DNA of 11,612 nucleotides. It comes from Promethearchaeota archaeon. GTDB lineage: Archaea > Asgardarchaeota > Hermodarchaeia > Hermodarchaeales > Hermodarchaeaceae. A model generated the notes under the pieces. That model was not told where the DNA came from, searched no databases, and saw only the letters and a list, made by a program, of their open reading frames with translations. Location: assembly GCA_048939245.1 (NCBI GenBank), contig JBHLPR010000070.1:1-11612 (forward strand). Direction: 5' to 3'. Positions 1-7,117 of the stretch are shown here, piece by piece. A program made the position numbers and the translations under genes. Each line of letters starts with the position of its first letter. Positions within the stretch are counted from its first letter, which is position 1.

Positions 1-219
1 GTAATTGACTCCATCGAACAAACAGATTTTACAATACGGCGAGAACTATCAAATGATATCGTGCTAACAGGAGGAGGCTCTCTCTTCCTTGGGCTCCGTG
101 AACGATTCGAAAATGAACTCAGACGCCGGCTCCCGCATCTCCCGGTTAACGTCTACGCCCTTGAGGATGCTTTGACTAATGCATGGTCTGGTGCGGCTGC
201 CTTGCACCGGCCTCCATAA
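1..219 (+). CDS. Actin-related protein, C-terminal fragment (5' truncated by window edge)
   Basis: Frame +1 reads VIDSIEQTDFTIRRELSNDIVLTGGGSLFLGLRERFENELRRRLPHLPVNVYALEDALTNAWSGAAALHRPP*, with TAA at 217-219. This matches actin [32 protein letters not shown]...SVWIGG (adenosine motif) and aligns with the C-terminus of the next ORF. Not in the ORF track. Confidence 0.9.
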   Translation, partial: VIDSIEQTDFTIRRELSNDIVLTGGGSLFLGLRERFENELRRRLPHLPVNVYALEDALTNAWSGAAALHRPP

Positions 220-339
220 GCGTTTAATCATCACGAATATTACACGTTAATGCTCTGGGTTGTAAGATATCATCATTTTATTTCTCTTTCAGTAATTGAA
301 ATAGAAACTATTTTCAAACATGCTTCCTAGAGTTGATTT

Positions 340-1359
340 GTGAACGATACCCAAGCCAACCTTATCATTGACCTGGGTAGTGGCTACATGAAATGCGGGT
401 TTCCAGAACAACCAAAACCCGTAATCATTCCTGCCACTTTCAAGAATCCCAGACCAGGTAGTGGAGCTTCAATATTTATTGACCTCGATCCGGGGCGTGA
501 GACCTGGGTATTTCCCCTCGAGAACGGTATGCTCCCCCAAGATTCATCGCTTGTCACTAAGCTTTGTAAACTCGCCTTAGAACATTTTCCAACAATGAAT
601 AAACAACGCAATAAACTCCAATTAACATTGCTGTTGTTTCCTCGATGTCCATCTGATCGCGTAACTCAGCTGTGTCAAGAGGTTAAAGAAGCCCTCAAAG
701 TTTTCCATGTCGAGGCTGCAATTCAACAAATTCTCACTTGGGGGTATTGGGGACGGAAAACTGCTTTAATTATCGACGTTGGGTACACAAGCACCTTTAT
801 TACACCAATCTATCGGGGCTTTCTATTAGAAGAACAAATACTGCCGCTGGTAACGGGGAGTTTCTTTGTATCTGCAGAAATTCGCAAACTACTAATGCAC
901 ACAGCCGAAACTGCCTCCCCCAAAATGGCACCTTATTTTGATCGCCTAGTTAAAAATAGGAGGGCAATTCGTTCCATAAAAGAGTCACACTGCCAAGTGT
1001 TTCCGATGCCAGTAGATGATGTTTTCGAAGATAACATTAATTTTCCTATTGAGGGCATTGAACTCCCTCTCGGTCCTCTTCCATGGCAAGCACCGGAAGT
1101 ATTATTTCAACCAACACTTTTGGGAGTTGGAGACAAAGGCTTAACTGAGGCTATTGTAGATGTATTAATGCGGGTAGACACCACCGTACGTGCAGAATTG
1201 GCCTCAAATCTTGTACTCACAGGTGGAGGATCAATGATGCCTGGTCTAAAAGCTCGTATTAAAACTGACCTAAAGGCGCAAATTCCCCATCTTTCTGTCA
1301 AGATTTATGACCTCGAATATCCCCTTTACAGTAGTTGGTTAGGCGCTGCAAAAATGTGA
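340..1359 (+). CDS. Divergent actin-related protein (actin/ARP family), 339 aa
   Basis: Phosphate-1 IIDLGSGYMKCGF; FPLENG (actin YPIEHG); AAIQQIL (actin VAIQAVL); phosphate-2 IIDVGYTSTFITPIYRGF; IKESHC; APEVLFQPTLLG; LVLTGGGSMMPGL; YSSWLG. GTG start. Confidence 0.93.
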   Translation: MNDTQANLIIDLGSGYMKCGFPEQPKPVIIPATFKNPRPGSGASIFIDLDPGRETWVFPLENGMLPQDSSLVTKLCKLALEHFPTMNKQRNKLQLTLLLFPRCPSDRVTQLCQEVKEALKVFHVEAAIQQILTWGYWGRKTALIIDVGYTSTFITPIYRGFLLEEQILPLVTGSFFVSAEIRKLLMHTAETASPKMAPYFDRLVKNRRAIRSIKESHCQVFPMPVDDVFEDNINFPIEGIELPLGPLPWQAPEVLFQPTLLGVGDKGLTEAIVDVLMRVDTTVRAELASNLVLTGGGSMMPGLKARIKTDLKAQIPHLSVKIYDLEYPLYSSWLGAAKM

Positions 1360-1373
1360 GAAAGGGATTAACC

Positions 1374-1763
1374 ATGTCCACTGGAACCCAAGTAAAAGAA
1401 GCAATAGAAAAAATCGAAAAGGGACTTGACGAACTTGCCGAACAGCTCAAGGCCACCCAATCAGCAATGGAACAACTCGGTCAAGATTTGTCAGCACAAA
1501 TGGATCAAACGGCGAAACAAGCCAACCAAGCAGCCCAAGAGATTCATCGTGATGTAACCACTTTTCGAGAACAACGTCAATTAGTTGAAACGCAGCTTCT
1601 TGCAGAGGTTGATCGCGCAAAGGAGCTCAGTAACCTTAAAGATATCGAGGAGGCGATTCGAGTTATCATTGAGATAGTTGATGAACTAACGAATCGCATC
1701 AACTTGGATGAAATTTTACAAACTGTAAAAGACCTCGAAGCCTCCAATAAGGGAGGCAAATAG
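1374..1763 (+). CDS. Coiled-coil protein of unknown function, ~129 aa
   Basis: ATG at 1374, 14 nt after the actin stop, is preferred over the track start at 1335, which overlaps the actin gene. Continuous E/Q/K/L-rich heptads and no Pro. Confidence 0.8.
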   Translation: MSTGTQVKEAIEKIEKGLDELAEQLKATQSAMEQLGQDLSAQMDQTAKQANQAAQEIHRDVTTFREQRQLVETQLLAEVDRAKELSNLKDIEEAIRVIIEIVDELTNRINLDEILQTVKDLEASNKGGK

Positions 1764-1764
1764 T

Positions 1765-1770
1765 AGGTGA
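1765..1770 (+). promoter_or_regulatory. Shine-Dalgarno motif AGGTGA
   Basis: AGGTGA lies 6 nt upstream of ATG 1777, in a 13-nt intergenic gap, which supports an operon. Confidence 0.65.
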
Positions 1771-1776
1771 ATTACG

Positions 1777-2223
1777 ATGACTGAACAACCACCCAAACCC
1801 CCGACACCCCCACCACCTGAACAACCCAGTTCAACTGGCGCCGACTCGCTCATTCCATTTGTCACTCAGGCATTCAATAACTTGTTCACCAGGCTAACTG
1901 GGCTCACCCAAGAAGTGTCTACTCTCAAAGATACAATTAACCAGATTGATCAATTGGTTAAAGCTCGCTTAGAAACCATCGAACCACAATTTCAGGAATT
2001 ATTATCTAATCTCCGTGAGCAACGGCGAAGTAGTGTGACTCATTATTCACAGCTTGCCGCAACAATCGCTCAAGGTTTTGAATCCTTAGGTGACCTACGT
2101 TCTTCCTCTGCAGATGCTCAGGCTTTAGAATTGCTTTCAGAAACCTTACAAGCAGCTCAAGATGCCCTCTACTGTTTACGAATGGAACGCTTAATCAGAA
2201 GATACCTTGAATTACAAAAGTAA
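1777..2223 (+). CDS. Coiled-coil protein with N-terminal polyproline segment, 148 aa
   Basis: MTEQPPKPPTPPPPEQP followed by helical heptads; SD motif upstream. Confidence 0.85.
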   Translation: MTEQPPKPPTPPPPEQPSSTGADSLIPFVTQAFNNLFTRLTGLTQEVSTLKDTINQIDQLVKARLETIEPQFQELLSNLREQRRSSVTHYSQLAATIAQGFESLGDLRSSSADAQALELLSETLQAAQDALYCLRMERLIRRYLELQK

Positions 2224-2232
2224 TAGTGGGTT

Positions 2233-2790
2233 TTACACCTTTCCAGGTTTCTTCTTTAGCCCATATTTTTCACGCATTTTTTCACGCCAGGGTTGATCTG
2301 AGCCGGTAGATTCAGCTACTGCATCAATCTTTGCTTTTGGTTCGGAGGCTGGTTCTGGTGTCTTTGAGGCTGGTTCAGTCGTCTTCGTTGCTTTTGGGGC
2401 TGTTGATTCGGAAGGTTTGGGGGTGGATCGAGGAGTCATAGTCCGTGGAGCAAAATCTTGTCCAGTCTCAAGACGTGAAAGCACTTCGGTGATTGTGAAC
2501 ATCTGCATTCGCTTATCCAATTCTGCAATGGATCGCATCATTAACCGGTTGAGTTCTTGCGGTTCTGATTTGCTAAGTTCGGTGAGCTTCTTACTTAATG
2601 AATCGATTCGATTATTCAGGTTTGCAATATTATCCTTGAGTACTCCAACGGCATCTAATTGCCGACGAATGCTCTCCAAGTCCTTTGAGATATGCTGCTC
2701 GACTTCGCTGATACGGTTGAGCGTCTTTTCCAAGATTTCCGTCATCTGCCGGAAAACATCATCCATTTGGGCATCTTTAAAATCAGACAT
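2233..2790 (-). CDS. Coiled-coil protein with P/T/E/K-rich disordered linker and basic C-terminal helix, ~185 aa
   Basis: ATG at 2790 (in-frame GTG at 2793). About 110 aa of heptads, then TPKPSESTAPKATKTTEPASKTPEPASEPK, then WREKMREKYGLKKKPGKV. Convergent on the previous gene with a 9-nt gap. Confidence 0.85.
   Translation of the reverse strand: MSDFKDAQMDDVFRQMTEILEKTLNRISEVEQHISKDLESIRRQLDAVGVLKDNIANLNNRIDSLSKKLTELSKSEPQELNRLMMRSIAELDKRMQMFTITEVLSRLETGQDFAPRTMTPRSTPKPSESTAPKATKTTEPASKTPEPASEPKAKIDAVAESTGSDQPWREKMREKYGLKKKPGKV
2345..2376. repeat. 11-bp direct repeat GAGGCTGGTTC x2 (21-nt period) encoding EPAS repeats
   Basis: Copies at 2345-2355 and 2366-2376, within the low-complexity linker. 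Confidence 0.6.
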
Positions 2791-2864
2791 CACTGGTCAT
2801 AGCTTTCTTCTGACAAAGACTTTTATTCCTTCCTATTTGCAAGGGGGTGGGTGTATAAATTTCT

Positions 2865-3893
2865 GTGAATAATTCAGTGATAATTTCAAGACACCAATGC
2901 CAAAAACTTGGTAATCGAATAGGAGAACTACAACCTGACGCTGAAGACTTCTTAGATGCCGATCTTTTTCCGGCGCCGTGCTATGAACCTGAAGAGATCA
3001 CTCGCTTCTTTTTCTTTGTCACTGGTATTGATCATCGAACAAGTCCACCCAATCAGAGCTTTGAAGGAATTATTGACGGTAAGCATTTTCATGGGGCTGA
3101 CCTACTCTGGCATCTTAGTTTACGGAAATTTATCGAGAATTCTCAGTTTTTTCATCCTTCCAATATGTCACAGATTACTGCTGAAAGGGTATCTGAATGG
3201 TACACCGTTCAGCACCCTCAACCGGTCACCATTCGTAATCCTGGAGAAAGAGCTGTTCTGCTTCGAAATGGCGGCAAATTACTTTTAGATAAATATCAAG
3301 GATCCGTACTCAATCTGCTTAAAACTGCAAATCATCGGGCACACTCCAAACCCGATGAGACTAGCCTTGGATTTGTGCAACTACTTTCTGAGTTCAAAGC
3401 CTACAAAGATCCTGCGAAAAAGAAGAGCTATTTACTATTGAAATTCTTACTTCGTCGAAATCTCTGGTCTATCACAGATTATAATCACGTACGAATTCCA
3501 GTCGATAATCATCTCACTCGGATTGCGCTTCGAACAGGTATCGTCAATGTCTCACCAGATCTTGCCGATGTTCTTCGTCAGCAGAAACCCATTTCGCAAT
3601 ACACGGATTTTATTCTACGTGACAAGATAGGTGAAGCATATACACGTGTGGGCGAATTCGCAAAGCGATCAGTATTAGAACTCGATGATTTCTTCTGGCA
3701 TTTTGGGCGGAAATGCTGTATTTTGGATAACCCAGTTTGCGTCACGGGCTGCTCCGCAGATTGTTATGTCGTCGAGCATTTGTTGAATGTCTCATGTCAT
3801 GGGGTCTGTCCTCTGAGTTCCATTTGTCCTGCATCAACTGACGACTATCAGCGTCGGCTGGTTGAACCAAAACTAAAGACTTGGTATTATTAG
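2865..3893 (+). CDS. HhH-GPD superfamily / queuosine-salvage (QNG1, DUF2419)-like N-glycosylase with Cys-rich C-terminus
   Basis: ERAVLLRNGGKLLLDKYQGS and FKAYKDPAKKKSYLL resemble the QNG1 core. IPVDNHLTRIALRTG is the HhH-GPD catalytic-Asp motif. LDDFFWHFGRKCC-x6-C...CPLSSIC resembles the EndoIII Fe-S loop. The start codon is uncertain. Confidence 0.7.
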   Translation: MNNSVIISRHQCQKLGNRIGELQPDAEDFLDADLFPAPCYEPEEITRFFFFVTGIDHRTSPPNQSFEGIIDGKHFHGADLLWHLSLRKFIENSQFFHPSNMSQITAERVSEWYTVQHPQPVTIRNPGERAVLLRNGGKLLLDKYQGSVLNLLKTANHRAHSKPDETSLGFVQLLSEFKAYKDPAKKKSYLLLKFLLRRNLWSITDYNHVRIPVDNHLTRIALRTGIVNVSPDLADVLRQQKPISQYTDFILRDKIGEAYTRVGEFAKRSVLELDDFFWHFGRKCCILDNPVCVTGCSADCYVVEHLLNVSCHGVCPLSSICPASTDDYQRRLVEPKLKTWYY

Positions 3894-3901
3894 ACCGATT
3901 G

Positions 3902-5647
3902 CTACCCTTTGGGTTTGTATTTGTATTTGCCCACAAAAGTTTCTCGGCTCATCATCGCGGGGAGTGCCCATATCACCACTGTGCCGTTCATTGTTTCTCG
4001 TAAGGATGGTTTGGGTGTTCCAGCTGGAACCCCGACATATTCAAAGTTGGGTGGAATTAGGTCCTGTAATTCGGGGTCTTGGAGACTGGTTTCCCCTTCA
4101 TTTACAAAGGTGACCGTCACAAGTAACTCGCCTACTTCAGAGGTCGGCGCAACTGTTCGTGTCTTGCGGAGTCTACGTACGACGGAGCGAACTTTGATTA
4201 CCGGTGCCATTATTTCAGAAATCTCAACAGTGGCTTTGGGTCCTGGAGGAAAGGTATTGGCTTCAATTTTAGCGGGGAATGGGTGTTCGTGGTCGGGTTT
4301 GGGCGCCCTTGCAATGGTAATGTAATTTGCGGTGACTGTATCGCCCGGTTTAATAGAAGACTGGGTTTCAGATAAATCATGGAGTTGAATGTTGAGTGTA
4401 TGAGGAATTTTCAAATCTCGATCCTTAGGTCGGACTTCTACTTTGAGATTTCGTGTGATCGGTTTATCACCTACACGAATTCGAATTTGAGTGGTGTCTG
4501 GGGGTTCAAATCCCGGAGGAAGTTTTTCAATGAACGTGATGTCGTTGCAATCGGTGCTGCCCGTATTCTTGGCTTTCAAAGTGACAGCCACCGGTGCAGG
4601 TTCCCATGCAAGTAATTCAACCGGTTCAACCTGTTTATCACCTTCAATACGAAGGACGGGAAACACGGTCTCAGCTTTGTCTATGGTCCCCACGATTTCT
4701 TGTATGATGGGTGCTTCTACGGTAGAAAGGGCAATGACATCGAATTCGGGTTGATCGGCATTCACATCCAATTCGTGACCCCAAACTTCCTCGGGTTCAA
4801 GTCGCAGATTGGGTTTCCCTTCATACAATAACTCGTTTTCAGGGTCCGTTAATACAACTTGTACTCGTTCAAGCCTTAGCGGAAATTCACTCGCATTTCG
4901 TAAGGAGGCTTTACAGCGCCAGAATCCTGCTCGCATGGGGTTCTCCTCCTTTTCCACACTAATTTCTGTCTCCGATGATCCATGAAGGGTAGGCATGAGA
5001 GTGCTGCGTACCACCCCAGATATTCGATACGTGGCCTTGACTCTACCACCTGACTTGGGTTCAGTATCTTCAGCTGTGATGCTGGCTCTGATACGCTGTA
5101 CTGCAACTTGTTCTGAAGGGAGCTCCTTGATCGTCCAGGTAATCTGTCCCGCTTTGGGGTCGTATTCGGCTTTCCCTGCCTGGGTTTTCTGAATTTCGAC
5201 ATCCTCATAAATCGGAGGAATTTCTTTAGTTACAACAATATCACGAATTGTTGATCCAGAGTGATTTCTAAGATTGATGCTGATTTCTACAGGCATTTTA
5301 TACTCGAAAACTAGGGCATTGTTGACCCCAACCCGTTCGTGGAATGTATCAAGGGCTTCTGAAAGGAGCAGCATCGGTGATTCGATTTCTTTCACGATGA
5401 AGTCTTTTTCCCACTCTGTCATGGGGTCTAATCGACCAATGTCAAGAATATCAGTTCCTAGGGAAGTTCTGTTCTGTCGGTTCAGCTCAAGTTCTGCATC
5501 CCAAACCGCGAATTTCCGCGAGTTATTCTTCACCAAGACTTGACCGCGAGGGTCGAATCGAGAAATAACGTTATCTGCCGTTAGTCGAGTATGCTCATGT
5601 TCCTTAATAGAGATAGTTAACCCTGCTGGAGGCTGTGCCGAAGCCAA
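3902..5647 (-). CDS. Cytoplasmic multi-beta-sandwich protein: adaptin mu-homology-like region plus DUF11/Ig-like domains, 581 aa
   Basis: Repeated V.I.L.N.G......I...E.IPP.FE motifs (DUF11-like). GKAEYDPKAGQITWTIKELP resembles AP mu2 GKAKYKASENAIVWKIKRM. No signal peptide or TM segment seen. The TTG start is supported by an SD motif. Confidence 0.7.
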   Translation of the reverse strand: MASAQPPAGLTISIKEHEHTRLTADNVISRFDPRGQVLVKNNSRKFAVWDAELELNRQNRTSLGTDILDIGRLDPMTEWEKDFIVKEIESPMLLLSEALDTFHERVGVNNALVFEYKMPVEISINLRNHSGSTIRDIVVTKEIPPIYEDVEIQKTQAGKAEYDPKAGQITWTIKELPSEQVAVQRIRASITAEDTEPKSGGRVKATYRISGVVRSTLMPTLHGSSETEISVEKEENPMRAGFWRCKASLRNASEFPLRLERVQVVLTDPENELLYEGKPNLRLEPEEVWGHELDVNADQPEFDVIALSTVEAPIIQEIVGTIDKAETVFPVLRIEGDKQVEPVELLAWEPAPVAVTLKAKNTGSTDCNDITFIEKLPPGFEPPDTTQIRIRVGDKPITRNLKVEVRPKDRDLKIPHTLNIQLHDLSETQSSIKPGDTVTANYITIARAPKPDHEHPFPAKIEANTFPPGPKATVEISEIMAPVIKVRSVVRRLRKTRTVAPTSEVGELLVTVTFVNEGETSLQDPELQDLIPPNFEYVGVPAGTPKPSLRETMNGTVVIWALPAMMSRETFVGKYKYKPKG

Positions 5648-5696: not shown

Positions 5697-5797
5697 CATC
5701 TGTCAAGAAGTCCCCAAATAGCTTATCGATAATGTTTCGACAGTTATCCACTGCCCTCCCCTCAAAAGAAAATTACTTCGACTTTCTTCCTGATAAT

Positions 5798-7117
5798 ATG
5801 GCTCAGCAGCTGTTGACTTACAAAATCCCCATAGCACCCACACCAACTCAAGCCCAAATACTTTGGGTTCTCTCTGAAAAATGCCGTATTCTTTATAACT
5901 TCGCTCTAGCAGAAAGGGTTAATCAGTGGATAGTAAACCGCACAAAACCACCATCAGAACGTATCCACATCACCTATTTGAAACAACAAAACTCTCTCCC
6001 AGCCTTAAAAGCCAAGTATCCTGAATATGCTTGGGTCTACTCAAAAGTACTCCAAATGACATTACGACGCCTTGATTCTGATTTCAAATCTTTTTTTGCG
6101 CGATGGTGTAACGGTGACAGCACAGCCCGACCCCCACGCTTCAAAGGTAATCGTTACTTCACAACTCTATGTTTTAATCAATCTGGGTTCTCCCTGGACG
6201 TACAAAACCAACGGATACGATTTTCCCACCGTCACCCATCTGGTGTTGAACTGGAATTTGCATTATCGTGGTTGCCACAGTTGAACAATCGGATTAAACA
6301 AGTCGAAATTTTTCTAGATCGAAGAAATAGATGGTTCATCGCTATCACATGTGAAGTGTCAGTTCCTCCATACGTGGATAATACCAAGTATCAAGCCATC
6401 GATTTGGGAATTATTAATTTGGTCACGGCAGTGAATCTGCAGGGGAAATTCATTCAGATTCCCAATCGCCGCCCAGACCTATACTGGAAAAACAAATTGC
6501 GGCAACTGCAATCTCGGCGAGATCATTGCAAGAAACATAGTAATCGGTGGTGGTTTTATCAACGTAAATTTGTTAAGATGCGACTCAAACTTGTAAACCA
6601 GTTGCGCGATTTTCAGCATAAAATTTCCAAGGTTGTAGTGACGAATACTAGAGCTAACACCCTAATCATTGGTGATTTGAGGGTGAAAAATATGGTAAGG
6701 AGAGAGCTAACTTCAAGATATCGGCAACAGGAAGCGTCAGCTCGAACCTTAAACCATTCATTACAAAACACAGGCTTCATGGGGCGATTCGCCCAATTCT
6801 TAACCTACAAAGCCAAGAAAGTGGGTAAAAGGGTAATAAGAATTGACGAGGCGCAAACAACTAAGAAGTGCTGTATATGCGGTAAGATAAGGAATCGGCG
6901 ATTATCGGAGCGTGTTATTCAATGCGATTGTGGAACCCCCTTTGACCGTGACCAGAATGCAGCGGTCAACATAATGGTGCGGTTTCTATTGCAGCAACCC
7001 CCTGTGAACGGGGAGCTAGCCCAAAAATTTTGGGTTAGCTTGCATCGACAAACAGCCATCTCCCCTATTTGGCGGAGAGTGGATTCGATGGAAGCTCCTG
7101 CACACATGCAGGGGTAG
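5798..7117 (+). CDS. tnpB: IS200/IS605-family TnpB RNA-guided endonuclease, rearranged RuvC-II type
   Basis: N-terminal TYKIPIAPTPTQ...CRILYNFALAER; PPRFKG; RuvC-I AIDLGI (D codon 6401); RuvC-II IIGDL; Zn finger CCICG...CDCG; RuvC-III DRDQNAAVNI (D codon 6950). Family homology begins at ATG 5798; the track start is 5732. Confidence 0.95.
   Translation: MAQQLLTYKIPIAPTPTQAQILWVLSEKCRILYNFALAERVNQWIVNRTKPPSERIHITYLKQQNSLPALKAKYPEYAWVYSKVLQMTLRRLDSDFKSFFARWCNGDSTARPPRFKGNRYFTTLCFNQSGFSLDVQNQRIRFSHRHPSGVELEFALSWLPQLNNRIKQVEIFLDRRNRWFIAITCEVSVPPYVDNTKYQAIDLGIINLVTAVNLQGKFIQIPNRRPDLYWKNKLRQLQSRRDHCKKHSNRWWFYQRKFVKMRLKLVNQLRDFQHKISKVVVTNTRANTLIIGDLRVKNMVRRELTSRYRQQEASARTLNHSLQNTGFMGRFAQFLTYKAKKVGKRVIRIDEAQTTKKCCICGKIRNRRLSERVIQCDCGTPFDRDQNAAVNIMVRFLLQQPPVNGELAQKFWVSLHRQTAISPIWRRVDSMEAPAHMQG

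What the first reader, a model, noticed from the sequence alone, without database searches (positions are those of the whole stretch)
1..2223. Tandem divergent actin-related genes followed by small coiled-coil proteins: candidate uncharacterised ARP complex
Seen: two actin-fold paralogues in tandem, followed at 13-14-nt spacing by two all-helical proteins, with a third coiled-coil gene converging 9 nt away. Established: eukaryotic divergent ARPs act as pairs or caps organised by helical partners (Arp2/3, Arp7/Arp9 or actin/Arp4 on an HSA helix, dynactin Arp1/Arp11 with coiled-coil subunits), while most divergent Asgard actin paralogues have no known function. Inference: this locus encodes an ARP heterodimer with dedicated helical scaffold subunits.
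Basis: partly seen in the sequence, partly recalled or inferred. Interest (0 to 1): 0.75.

Follow-up and report, generated by a model that had tools for sequence, protein, structure and literature searches.

The report
Short actin relatives beside Asgard helical trio
An uncultured Asgard archaeon (Hermodarchaeia) has two stripped-down actin-like genes, one of which shares an operon with small rod-like helical proteins that many other Asgard archaea have without any actin gene nearby, so these proteins are testable partners rather than a proven actin-related complex.

Summary
The window starts inside an actin-family gene, ArpA. Joining contig C97 through a 77-nt overlap completes it to 337 aa. 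It is followed by a 40%-identical paralogue, ArpB (339 aa), then two helical genes, CC1 and CC2, at gaps of 14 and 13 nt, and a convergent third, CC3, 9 nt away.

- **ARPs:** they form a Hermodarchaeia-only clade on a very long branch. They lack part of subdomain 2, three phosphate-2 residues and the last ~25 residues of actin.
- **Age of the pair:** the A/B split is old. The sister genus keeps only the A type, and another lineage appears to keep only the B type, so a heterodimer is not obligatory.
- **Transcription units (inferred):** sequence signals suggest two units, NIF3-ArpA and ArpB-CC1-CC2. A conserved promoter-like element precedes the second unit, and in the genus without ArpB it precedes CC1 directly.
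- **Helical genes:** CC1 and CC2 are paralogues of an unnamed family seen only in Asgard archaea. At least six other Asgard families have them with no actin gene adjacent, so they are not dedicated ARP subunits.

No binding evidence could be obtained. This scan reached much the same conclusion on four other Hermodarchaeial genomes. I found no paper describing either part.

The parts
1..219 (+). 3' end (72 codons plus stop) of ArpA. The full gene has 337 codons and continues upstream on contig C97 (C97:872..1, minus strand, overlapping window 1-77).
   Evidence: Pfam Actin E 5.4e-13. Orthologues 71-87% identical sit in the same position after NIF3.
303..321 (+). Conserved promoter-like element AGAAACTATTTTCAAACAT, an imperfect palindrome (GAAAC/GTTTTC) with a T-rich core. 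It ends 18 nt before the ArpB GTG start.
   Evidence: It is present at the same distance in every same-genus locus, although the rest of the spacer has diverged. A related form (GCAACTGTTTTCA) lies upstream of CC1 in the genus that lacks ArpB. Another (GAAAYCGTTTTCC) lies before the ArpB-type gene in L094 and L095. The 12-nt core occurs once in the genome. Its function as a promoter or operator is inferred.
340..1359 (+). ArpB, a 339-aa shortened and divergent actin-fold protein.
   Evidence: Pfam Actin 120 bits. About 25% identity to actins of known structure. AlphaFold2 pLDDT 92.9, pTM 0.91. The best structural matches are actins, TM about 0.78.
1360..1373 (+). ArpB-CC1 junction of 14 nt with a purine-rich Shine-Dalgarno-like motif (GAAAGGGA).
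   Evidence: The junction is 14-25 nt long and carries (A)GGGGAA or AGGGAGAA in all same-genus and third-lineage loci.
1374..1763 (+). CC1, a 129-aa helical protein and first member of the Asgard-wide paralogue pair.
   Evidence: Hermod CC1 profile against the first-of-pair genes of other Asgard families: hhalign 91.9%, E 7e-7, 120 columns. CC1 against CC2: 96.8%, E 3e-10. The ATG at 1374 is preferred to the TTG at 1335 because of the SD-like motif and the conserved N-terminus.
1777..2223 (+). CC2, a 148-aa helical hairpin and the best-conserved gene of the set. It is preceded by a GGTGA Shine-Dalgarno motif at 1768-1772. Residues 4-17 (nt 1786-1827) form a Pro-rich extension (QPPKPPTPPPPEQP) seen only in Hermodarchaeia.
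   Evidence: 79-96% identity (aligned parts) within the genus. Homologues in seven further Asgard families. hhalign 98.2%, E 4.6e-14. One invariant Arg, R83. AlphaFold2 hairpin. About 40 clusters at E<=1e-10 among 1.84 billion proteins; the few that carry an organism name are all Asgard.
2233..2790 (-). CC3, 185 aa from the ATG at 2790 (186 aa from the GTG at 2793). It has a helical N-terminal part of about 110 aa, a variable Pro/Ser/Thr-rich linker, and a conserved C-terminal peptide PWREKMREKYGLKKKPG (nt 2242-2292).
   Evidence: The peptide is conserved in all three Hermod lineages while the linker varies, and it occurs once in the genome. Orthology to the third gene of other Asgard families is positional only (hhalign 24%).

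Best explanation
ArpA and ArpB belong to a Hermodarchaeia-specific family of shortened actin-fold proteins. They probably bind a nucleotide but do not form F-actin-like filaments.

ArpB is the leaderless first gene of an operon whose other members are CC1 and CC2. These two paralogous helical hairpins are much older than the ARPs and occur across Asgard archaea. They most likely pair into an elongated rod, with the convergently encoded CC3 as a third member that carries a flexible arm and a terminal docking peptide.

My best reading is that an ARP was added in Hermodarchaeia to this pre-existing helical module as a lineage-specific, co-expressed and physically attached subunit. ArpA, encoded behind NIF3 in a separate unit, would be an optional second copy.

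**Shown:** the gene structures, the family memberships, the distribution, the gene tree and the conserved sequence signals.

**Inferred:** co-transcription, nucleotide binding, inability to polymerise, and above all any physical contact between the ARPs and the helical proteins.
For: **Operon layout.** ArpB-CC1-CC2 has gaps of 13-25 nt. SD-like motifs before CC1 and CC2 are conserved down to about 50% ArpB identity. A conserved promoter-like element sits about 18 nt before the ArpB start codon, which fits a leaderless first cistron.

**Same element without ArpB.** In the sister genus, which lacks ArpB, the related element precedes CC1, so it belongs to the CC1-CC2 unit.

**ARP features.**
- The P1 motif (D11, G13, G15, K18), the Q137 equivalent, D154/G156 and the GGG adenosine motif are invariant or nearly so across 37 family members.
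- D157, G158 and H161 are replaced.
- About 15 residues of subdomain 2 and the C-terminal ~25 residues are missing. From my own knowledge of F-actin, both of these regions make longitudinal filament contacts.
- The model is a confident actin fold.

**Clade.** The ARPs form one clade (100/100 support) on a long stem, found only in Hermodarchaeota-labelled MAGs.

**Lineage-specific additions.** Hermod-specific features of the helical proteins coincide with the presence of the ARPs: the Pro-rich N-terminus of CC2 and the conserved tail peptide of CC3.
Against: - No direct evidence of binding.
- The helical pair exists without any adjacent actin gene in at least six other Asgard families. In the sister Hermod genus it exists without ArpB. 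It therefore works without ArpB.
- The whole 14-kb neighbourhood is syntenic within the class, so conserved adjacency is weak evidence.
- The coincidence of Hermod-specific features is a single evolutionary event.
Confidence: 0.4

Rival explanations
1. The genes are neighbours in one operon but do not form a complex. The ARPs act elsewhere, for example by capping, side-binding or sequestering the cell's lokiactin. The helical trio keeps the same unknown job it has in other Asgard archaea. Co-transcription would then reflect shared timing at most.
For: The trio is conserved without ARPs in other families and without ArpB in the sister genus. G000 has a separate canonical actin on C68 and a profilin on C26. 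General synteny explains the conserved order.
Against: The junction is tight and SD-coupled, and it is conserved over about 50% protein divergence. Both ARP types always sit directly next to the CC unit and nowhere else in the genomes searched.
Confidence: 0.35
2. One reading: ArpA and ArpB form an obligate heterodimer held by dedicated helical scaffold subunits, like Arp2/3, actin-Arp4 on an HSA helix, or Arp1/Arp11 in dynactin.
For: Two diverged paralogues are retained in all 14 genomes of the genus. They lie next to helical proteins.
Against: Single-ARP lineages exist: A-only in the sister genus and apparently B-only in L095. The two genes lie in separate inferred transcription units, and G007 has a 1.5-kb insertion between them. 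The helical genes predate the ARPs and are not dedicated to them. There is no affinity to Arp2, 3, 4 or 8, no ARPC gene and no HSA match.
Confidence: 0.1
3. The ARPs form filaments of their own with a different architecture, as crenactin, ParM or Salactin do. The helical proteins would regulate them, as arcadin-2 regulates crenactin.
For: The nucleotide-binding core is intact. The hydrophobic-plug region is of normal length. There is an archaeal precedent for a small protein encoded beside an actin homologue that binds its hydrophobic groove (PMC5173319).
Against: Part of subdomain 2, the C-terminal helices and the H161 equivalent are lost. The helical proteins are older than the ARPs and more widespread.
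Confidence: 0.1
4. The ARPs are decaying duplicates of actin with no function.
For: Very long branch and loss of segments.
Against: The open frames are intact in all genomes searched. 34 columns are invariant, including the nucleotide site, across sequences as low as 36% identical. Both paralogue lineages are retained.
Confidence: 0.03

Closest known systems
Asgard actin-related proteins other than lokiactin, for example the three non-lokiactin actin homologues of Ca. Lokiarchaeum ossiferum (Rodrigues-Oliveira et al. 2022, PMC9834061)
   Same: Divergent members of the actin family (Pfam PF00022) in an Asgard archaeon that also has a conserved lokiactin. Patchy, lineage-specific distribution shaped by duplication and loss. 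Function unknown.
   Different: This clade was found only in Hermodarchaeia. It is about 35-40 residues shorter than actin and lacks the C-terminal helices and part of subdomain 2. I could not place it against eukaryotic ARPs in a tree because no eukaryotic sequences were available to the script.
Crenarchaeal arcade cluster: crenactin with arcadin-2 (Izore et al. 2016, PMC5173319)
   Same: An archaeal actin homologue encoded beside small proteins. Arcadin-2 binds crenactin's hydrophobic groove through a C-terminal peptide. CC3 likewise has a flexible arm ending in a conserved short peptide.
   Different: Crenactin forms F-actin-like double filaments, whereas these ARPs lack the main longitudinal contact elements. 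No sequence relation to the arcadins was tested. The CC genes occur widely without an actin gene.
Eukaryotic ARP modules organised on helices: actin-Arp4 or Arp7-Arp9 on an HSA helix, and the Arp2/3 complex
   Same: The idea of non-filament actin-fold proteins held by helical partners. The structural search returned actin chains from such complexes among many others.
   Different: No HSA or ARPC match in the locus. The best sequence and fold matches are actin itself, then Arp1. A pair of ARPs is not universal in the clade.
Unnamed Asgard three-gene helical module, noted by this scan on other genomes and compared there with BLOC-1/BORC small subunits
   Same: CC1 and CC2 are members (hhalign 92% and 98%). 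The layout is the same: a tandem pair plus an oppositely oriented third gene with a disordered tail.
   Different: In other families the neighbour is a roadblock-like plus winged-helix gene, not an ARP. In Hermodarchaeia that gene lies on another contig. The Pfam BLOC1_2 match is far below threshold.

Membership tests
Actin family (Pfam PF00022) | Profile match above the curated cut-off | tested here: met
   ArpB 120.1 bits and the ArpA fragment 48.7 bits, against a cut-off of 27.
Actin family (Pfam PF00022) | Four-subdomain actin fold | tested here: met
   AlphaFold2 pLDDT 92.9, pTM 0.91. Foldseek top hits are all actins, E about 1e-25, TM 0.74-0.80.
Actin family (Pfam PF00022) | Nucleotide-binding motifs (phosphate 1, phosphate 2, adenosine) and catalytic Q137/H161 | tested here: inconclusive
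   P1, the Q137 equivalent, D154/G156 and the GGG motif are conserved. The D157, G158 and H161 equivalents are replaced: DVGYTSTF in ArpB and DIGHTLSM in ArpA. Binding is plausible; hydrolysis is doubtful.
Lokiactin (conserved Asgard actin) | Groups with the conserved Asgard actins; full length of about 375-395 aa with the C-terminal helices | tested here: not met
   It forms a separate clade (100/100 support) with stem lengths of 1.77 and 1.14 changes per site. G000's own canonical actin groups with the others. The C-terminus and part of subdomain 2 are absent.
Arp2/3 complex | Arp2 and Arp3 orthologues together with ARPC1-5 subunits | tested here: not met
   The best solved-structure sequence matches are actin (90 bits) and Arp1 (82 bits). 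No Arp2 or Arp3 chain is among the 60 best rows listed, though weaker matches were not shown. No ARPC family appeared among the Pfam hits of the nine window genes scanned. No tree with eukaryotic ARPs could be built.
HSA-helix actin/Arp module (INO80, SWR1, SWI/SNF, NuA4) | HSA domain helix in a partner protein | tested here: not met
   No HSA match for CC1, CC2 or CC3 at E<=0.1. The Foldseek search with the CC2 model gave only generic helical hairpins, best E 0.34.
Crenactin-arcadin (arcade) cluster | Crenactin orthologue with arcadin-1 to arcadin-4 genes; the arcadin-2 C-terminal peptide binds the actin groove | not tested
   No arcadin sequence was available to compare. The analogy rests on PMC5173319 and on the CC3 tail architecture.
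WH2 / beta-thymosin actin-binding motif | Short amphipathic helix followed by LKK[TV], matching Pfam WH2 | tested here: not met
   No WH2 hit for the CC3 tail, even at E<=10. The resemblance of WREKMREKYGLKKK to the motif is by eye and from memory, so it is only a lead.
Asgard helical pair (unnamed CC1/CC2 family) | Full-length profile similarity to the tandem pair of other Asgard families, in the same gene layout | tested here: met
   CC2 98.2% (E 4.6e-14, 127 columns). CC1 91.9% (E 7e-7, 120 columns). The tandem layout recurs in families f7, f22, f23, f9, f31 and f27.
Asgard helical trio, third member (CC3) | Sequence similarity to the third gene of other families | tested here: inconclusive
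   hhalign gives only 24%. Position, orientation and architecture (a helical part plus a disordered tail) agree in f7, f22, f23 and f31. No third gene was seen next to the pair in the f9 and f27 loci.
BLOC-1 / BORC small subunits | Match to a BLOC-1/BORC subunit family | tested here: not met
   BLOC1_2 E 0.038, 14.8 bits against a cut-off of 33.4. The profile search of 1.84 billion proteins found a small family of ~135-220-aa proteins; the five of ten sampled clusters that carry an organism name are Asgard.

The most novel reading that the evidence does not exclude
In Hermodarchaeia the old Asgard helical rod has been turned into an actin-assembly scaffold that works like Ena/VASP or WASP. CC1 and CC2 would form the rod. 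The poly-proline arm of CC2 would recruit the cell's profilin-actin. The flexible arm of CC3 would end in a WH2-like peptide (WREKMREKYGLKKK) that docks into the barbed-end groove, which is left open in the C-terminally truncated ARPs. The ARPs would serve as a seed or cap for lokiactin filaments. This would be a prokaryotic nucleation or elongation machine built from parts unrelated to the eukaryotic ones.
Probability: 0.07. Interest if true: 0.85.

Novelty: new variant of a known kind. Interest (0 to 1): 0.5.

Why it matters
[quoted passage not shown] This locus gives concrete candidates that can be cloned. One is a minimal actin fold of about 338 residues that has lost the elements used for filament contacts. 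Beside it, in one operon, lie two helical proteins from a family that is widespread in Asgard archaea and unstudied.

If the proteins bind each other, this would be a rare prokaryotic case of an actin-fold subunit recruited to a helical scaffold, which is how eukaryotic nuclear and dynactin ARPs are organised.

If they do not bind, two points of interest remain: an Asgard-specific helical module of unknown function, and a natural minimal actin for structure-function work.

Tried and rejected
The contexts of the more distant ARPs P0039, P0047 and P0048 could therefore not be fetched that way. The metagenome scan recovered contexts for the P0038 type only (L093-L095).
- **Genome-contig scan with the P0047/P0049 pair** found nothing.
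- **RNA evidence:** no RNA holder was listed for window 1-2900.
- **Fused forms:** no longer protein related to ArpB at E<=1e-20. This is weak evidence.
- **CC2 identity:**
  - Foldseek against the PDB gave only generic helical hairpins.
  - The ESM Atlas feature search gave scores of 0.86 or less to unrelated bacterial clusters.
  - Pfam hits for CC1-CC3 are all below threshold and of coiled-coil type.
- **'The ARP replaced the roadblock-WH gene'** was considered and rejected. A single-sequence search found no homologue. A profile then pointed to a 287-aa orthologue elsewhere in the genome, and hhalign gave 88.5% over both domains.
- **CC1/CC2/CC3 paralogy from Hermod-only alignments** was not significant (8-12%). 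It became significant for CC1-CC2 only with the other families added. An iterative HMM search merged all three families, and I treat that merger as possibly compositional.
- **The sigma-70 promoter scanner** was not used because it does not apply to archaea.
- **Eukaryotic ARPs** could not be added to the tree.
Full report
**What is in the window.** The window is a whole 11.6-kb contig (C88) of an 88%-complete Asgard MAG. Its gene content is as follows:

| Window position | Strand | Gene |
|---|---|---|
| 1-219 | + | end of an actin-family gene (ArpA) |
| 340-1359 | + | full actin-family gene (ArpB) |
| 1374-1763 | + | small helical gene CC1 |
| 1777-2223 | + | small helical gene CC2 |
| 2233-2790 | - | convergent helical gene CC3 |
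| 2865-3893 | + | Q_salvage-like gene |
| 3902-5647 | - | DUF11-type gene |
| 5732-7117 | + | TnpB |
| 7159-7608 | - | PCC-domain gene |
| 7697 onwards | + | intein-bearing PolB |

The first 77 nt of the window are the reverse complement of the start of contig C97. Joining the two is in frame and yields a 337-aa ArpA. It is preceded by NIF3 and a divergent NOL1/NSUN gene. Every relative has the same arrangement, so the join is sound.

**The actin-like proteins.** ArpB matches Pfam Actin at 120 bits and is about 25% identical to actins of known structure. Actin itself scores best (90 bits), then Arp1 (82 bits). AlphaFold2 gives a confident actin fold (pLDDT 92.9, pTM 0.91). All the best structural neighbours are actins.

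Compared with the genome's own canonical actin and other Asgard actins, ArpA and ArpB differ in four ways:
- They lack about 15 residues of subdomain 2.
- They lack about 8 residues in subdomain 4.
- They lack the last ~25 residues.
- The phosphate-2 motif DSGDGVTH has become DVGYTSTF in ArpB and DIGHTLSM in ArpA.

The P1 motif, the Q137 equivalent, D154/G156 and the adenosine GGG motif are invariant or nearly so over 37 family members. I infer a protein that binds a nucleotide, probably hydrolyses it poorly, and cannot make F-actin-type longitudinal contacts. That the D-loop region and the C-terminus form those contacts is my own knowledge, not tested here.

**Distribution and history of the ARPs.** Homologues above 36% identity occur only in Hermodarchaeota/Hermodarchaeia-labelled MAGs and unbinned contigs. 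Other Asgard genomes give hits of 25-31% only, and these are their ordinary actins and other ARPs.

A maximum-likelihood tree (49 rows, LG+C20+F+G4 PMSF) shows three things:
- All short ARPs form one clade (100/100 support) on a very long stem.
- ArpA groups with the single ARP of the sister genus (98/89).
- ArpB groups with ARPs from other metagenomic lineages (100/99).

The duplication is therefore older than the genus. The sister genus has no B-type gene in four genomes that are 80-83% complete. Contig L095 shows NIF3 followed directly by a B-type gene. Both single-copy states exist, which argues against an obligate A-B heterodimer.

**Transcription units (inferred from sequence).**
- The NIF3 stop and the ArpA start are 26-40 nt apart, with a conserved TGAGGAA motif in the genus and the sister genus.
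- The ArpA-ArpB spacer is 120-140 nt and mostly diverged. The exception is AGAAACTRTTTTCAAAYAT, which ends about 18 nt before the ArpB GTG in every same-genus locus.
- The third lineage has GAAAYCGTTTTCC at the same distance. The sister genus, which lacks ArpB, has GCAACTGTTTTCA upstream of CC1.
- In G007 a 1.5-kb insertion carrying a 288-aa ORF separates ArpA from this element.
- ArpB-CC1 and CC1-CC2 are 13-25 nt apart with conserved SD-like motifs.

A leaderless first gene followed by SD-led internal genes is the usual archaeal operon pattern (own knowledge). I therefore read two units: NIF3-ArpA and ArpB-CC1-CC2. CC3 would be transcribed convergently from a divergent promoter region shared with the Q_salvage-like gene. 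No RNA data were available.

**The helical genes are older than the ARPs.**
- *Distribution.* CC2 has full-length homologues in seven further Asgard families: E 1e-12 to 1e-5 in f7, f22 and f23, and weaker but full-length matches in f9, f27 and f31.
- *Layout.* In six of them (f7, f22, f23, f9, f31, f27) the homologue is the second gene of a tandem pair. In f7, f22, f23 and f31 an oppositely oriented third gene with a disordered tail lies next to it.
- *No actin nearby.* tblastn with ArpA and ArpB found nothing in 14 such loci of 6.7-17 kb.
- *Profile comparison.* Orthology holds for CC2 (98.2%, E 4.6e-14) and CC1 (91.9%, E 7e-7). CC1 and CC2 are paralogues (96.8%, E 3e-10). CC3 orthology is not established by sequence (24%).
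- *Family size.* A profile search of 1.84 billion representatives found about 40 clusters at E<=1e-10, mostly 135-180 aa. The named ones are all 'hypothetical protein' of Asgard MAGs, apart from one evident misnomer.
- *Structure.* CC2 is predicted to be a long helical hairpin, and no known fold or family was identified.

In f7 and f22 the gene upstream of the pair encodes a roadblock-like plus winged-helix protein (my reading by eye; Pfam finds nothing). Hermodarchaeia probably keep this gene elsewhere, at G000:C90:17579-18442. It carries a Pro-rich linker of about 100 residues (hhalign 88.5% over both domains). So the ARP did not replace it.

**What this means for the claim.** But the entire block from NSUN to PolB is syntenic there, so that conservation carries little weight.

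The informative facts pull in both directions. A tight, conserved operon joins ArpB to CC1-CC2. Yet the helical pair clearly functions without any ARP in other Asgard archaea and without ArpB in the sister genus.

Two Hermod-specific features of the helical proteins coincide with the ARPs. One is a Pro-rich N-terminus on CC2. The other is a conserved C-terminal peptide on CC3, PWREKMREKYGLKKKPG, which occurs once in the genome. These are suggestive but represent a single evolutionary event. The peptide recalls WH2/thymosin LKK motifs, but Pfam WH2 does not match it. A profilin gene is present.

**Verdict.** My best reading (0.4) is a lineage-specific, non-polymerising actin-fold subunit added to an older Asgard helical module. 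The main rival (0.35) is co-expression without binding.

The same module was reported by this scan on four other Hermodarchaeial genomes with similar conclusions, and the trio on three other Asgard genomes. I reached the distribution result independently before reading those notes.

- the contig join;
- the A/B gene tree with differential loss;
- the two-unit reading with the conserved promoter-like element;
- the relocated roadblock-WH orthologue;
- the class-wide CC3 tail peptide.

In the held literature I found no description of the short ARPs or of the helical family.

Noticed in passing
window 3902-5647 (-): A 581-aa protein matches DUF11 (E 2e-11). Over the same stretch it also matches the adaptor-complex medium-subunit (mu-homology) family at 31.8 bits, just above the 31.6-bit cut-off. 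It is conserved in the syntenic block of all Hermod lineages (50-86% identity).
   Followed up: no
window 2865-3893 (+): A 342-aa Q_salvage-like protein (34.5 bits, cut-off 25) with weak AGOG/DUF2400 matches and a Cys-rich C-terminal third. It is transcribed divergently from CC3 and is always its neighbour in Hermodarchaeia.
   Followed up: no
window 5732-7117 (+): A TnpB/IS605 OrfB gene lies between the DUF11 and PCC genes. The same insertion is present in G006 (77% identity), and a fragment remains in metagenome contig L084. Most relatives lack it at this site.
   Followed up: partly
window 1-77 and 11536-11612: Both contig ends share exact end-overlaps with other contigs of the assembly: the start with C97 (77 nt) and the end with C47 (at least the 55 nt tested, positioned for a 77-nt overlap). 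The break at the start falls inside ArpA, so the first gene of the finding looked truncated only because of the assembly.
   Followed up: yes
G000:C90:17579-18442 (-): A 287-aa protein with a roadblock-like N-terminal domain, a Pro-rich linker of about 100 residues and a winged-helix-like C-terminus. It is the probable Hermod orthologue of the gene that sits next to the helical trio in other Asgard families (hhalign 88.5%). Here it is unlinked, beside a Glx-tRNA synthetase-like gene.
   Followed up: partly
L030 (G007:C3) 4695-5561: A 1.5-kb insertion between ArpA and the ArpB promoter-like element carries a 288-aa ORF with an N-terminal CPxC zinc-ribbon-like motif. Its N-terminus has weak relatives on G000 contigs C87 and C11.
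   Followed up: partly
L075 (G137:C128) 7419-12071 and L076 (G135:C23): In family f23 the helical pair is flanked by several genes: a 171-aa gene that looks roadblock-like by eye, a CC3-like gene, a 624-aa protein with an Arf-family GTPase domain (E 2e-19) and a C-terminal coiled coil, and a further 126-aa gene. PolB lies 2-4 kb away. The CC3-like tails there contain VKLKKA or TLKKT.
   Followed up: no
window 7697-11611 (+): The PolB gene is interrupted by an intein with a homing-endonuclease-like insert.
   Followed up: no
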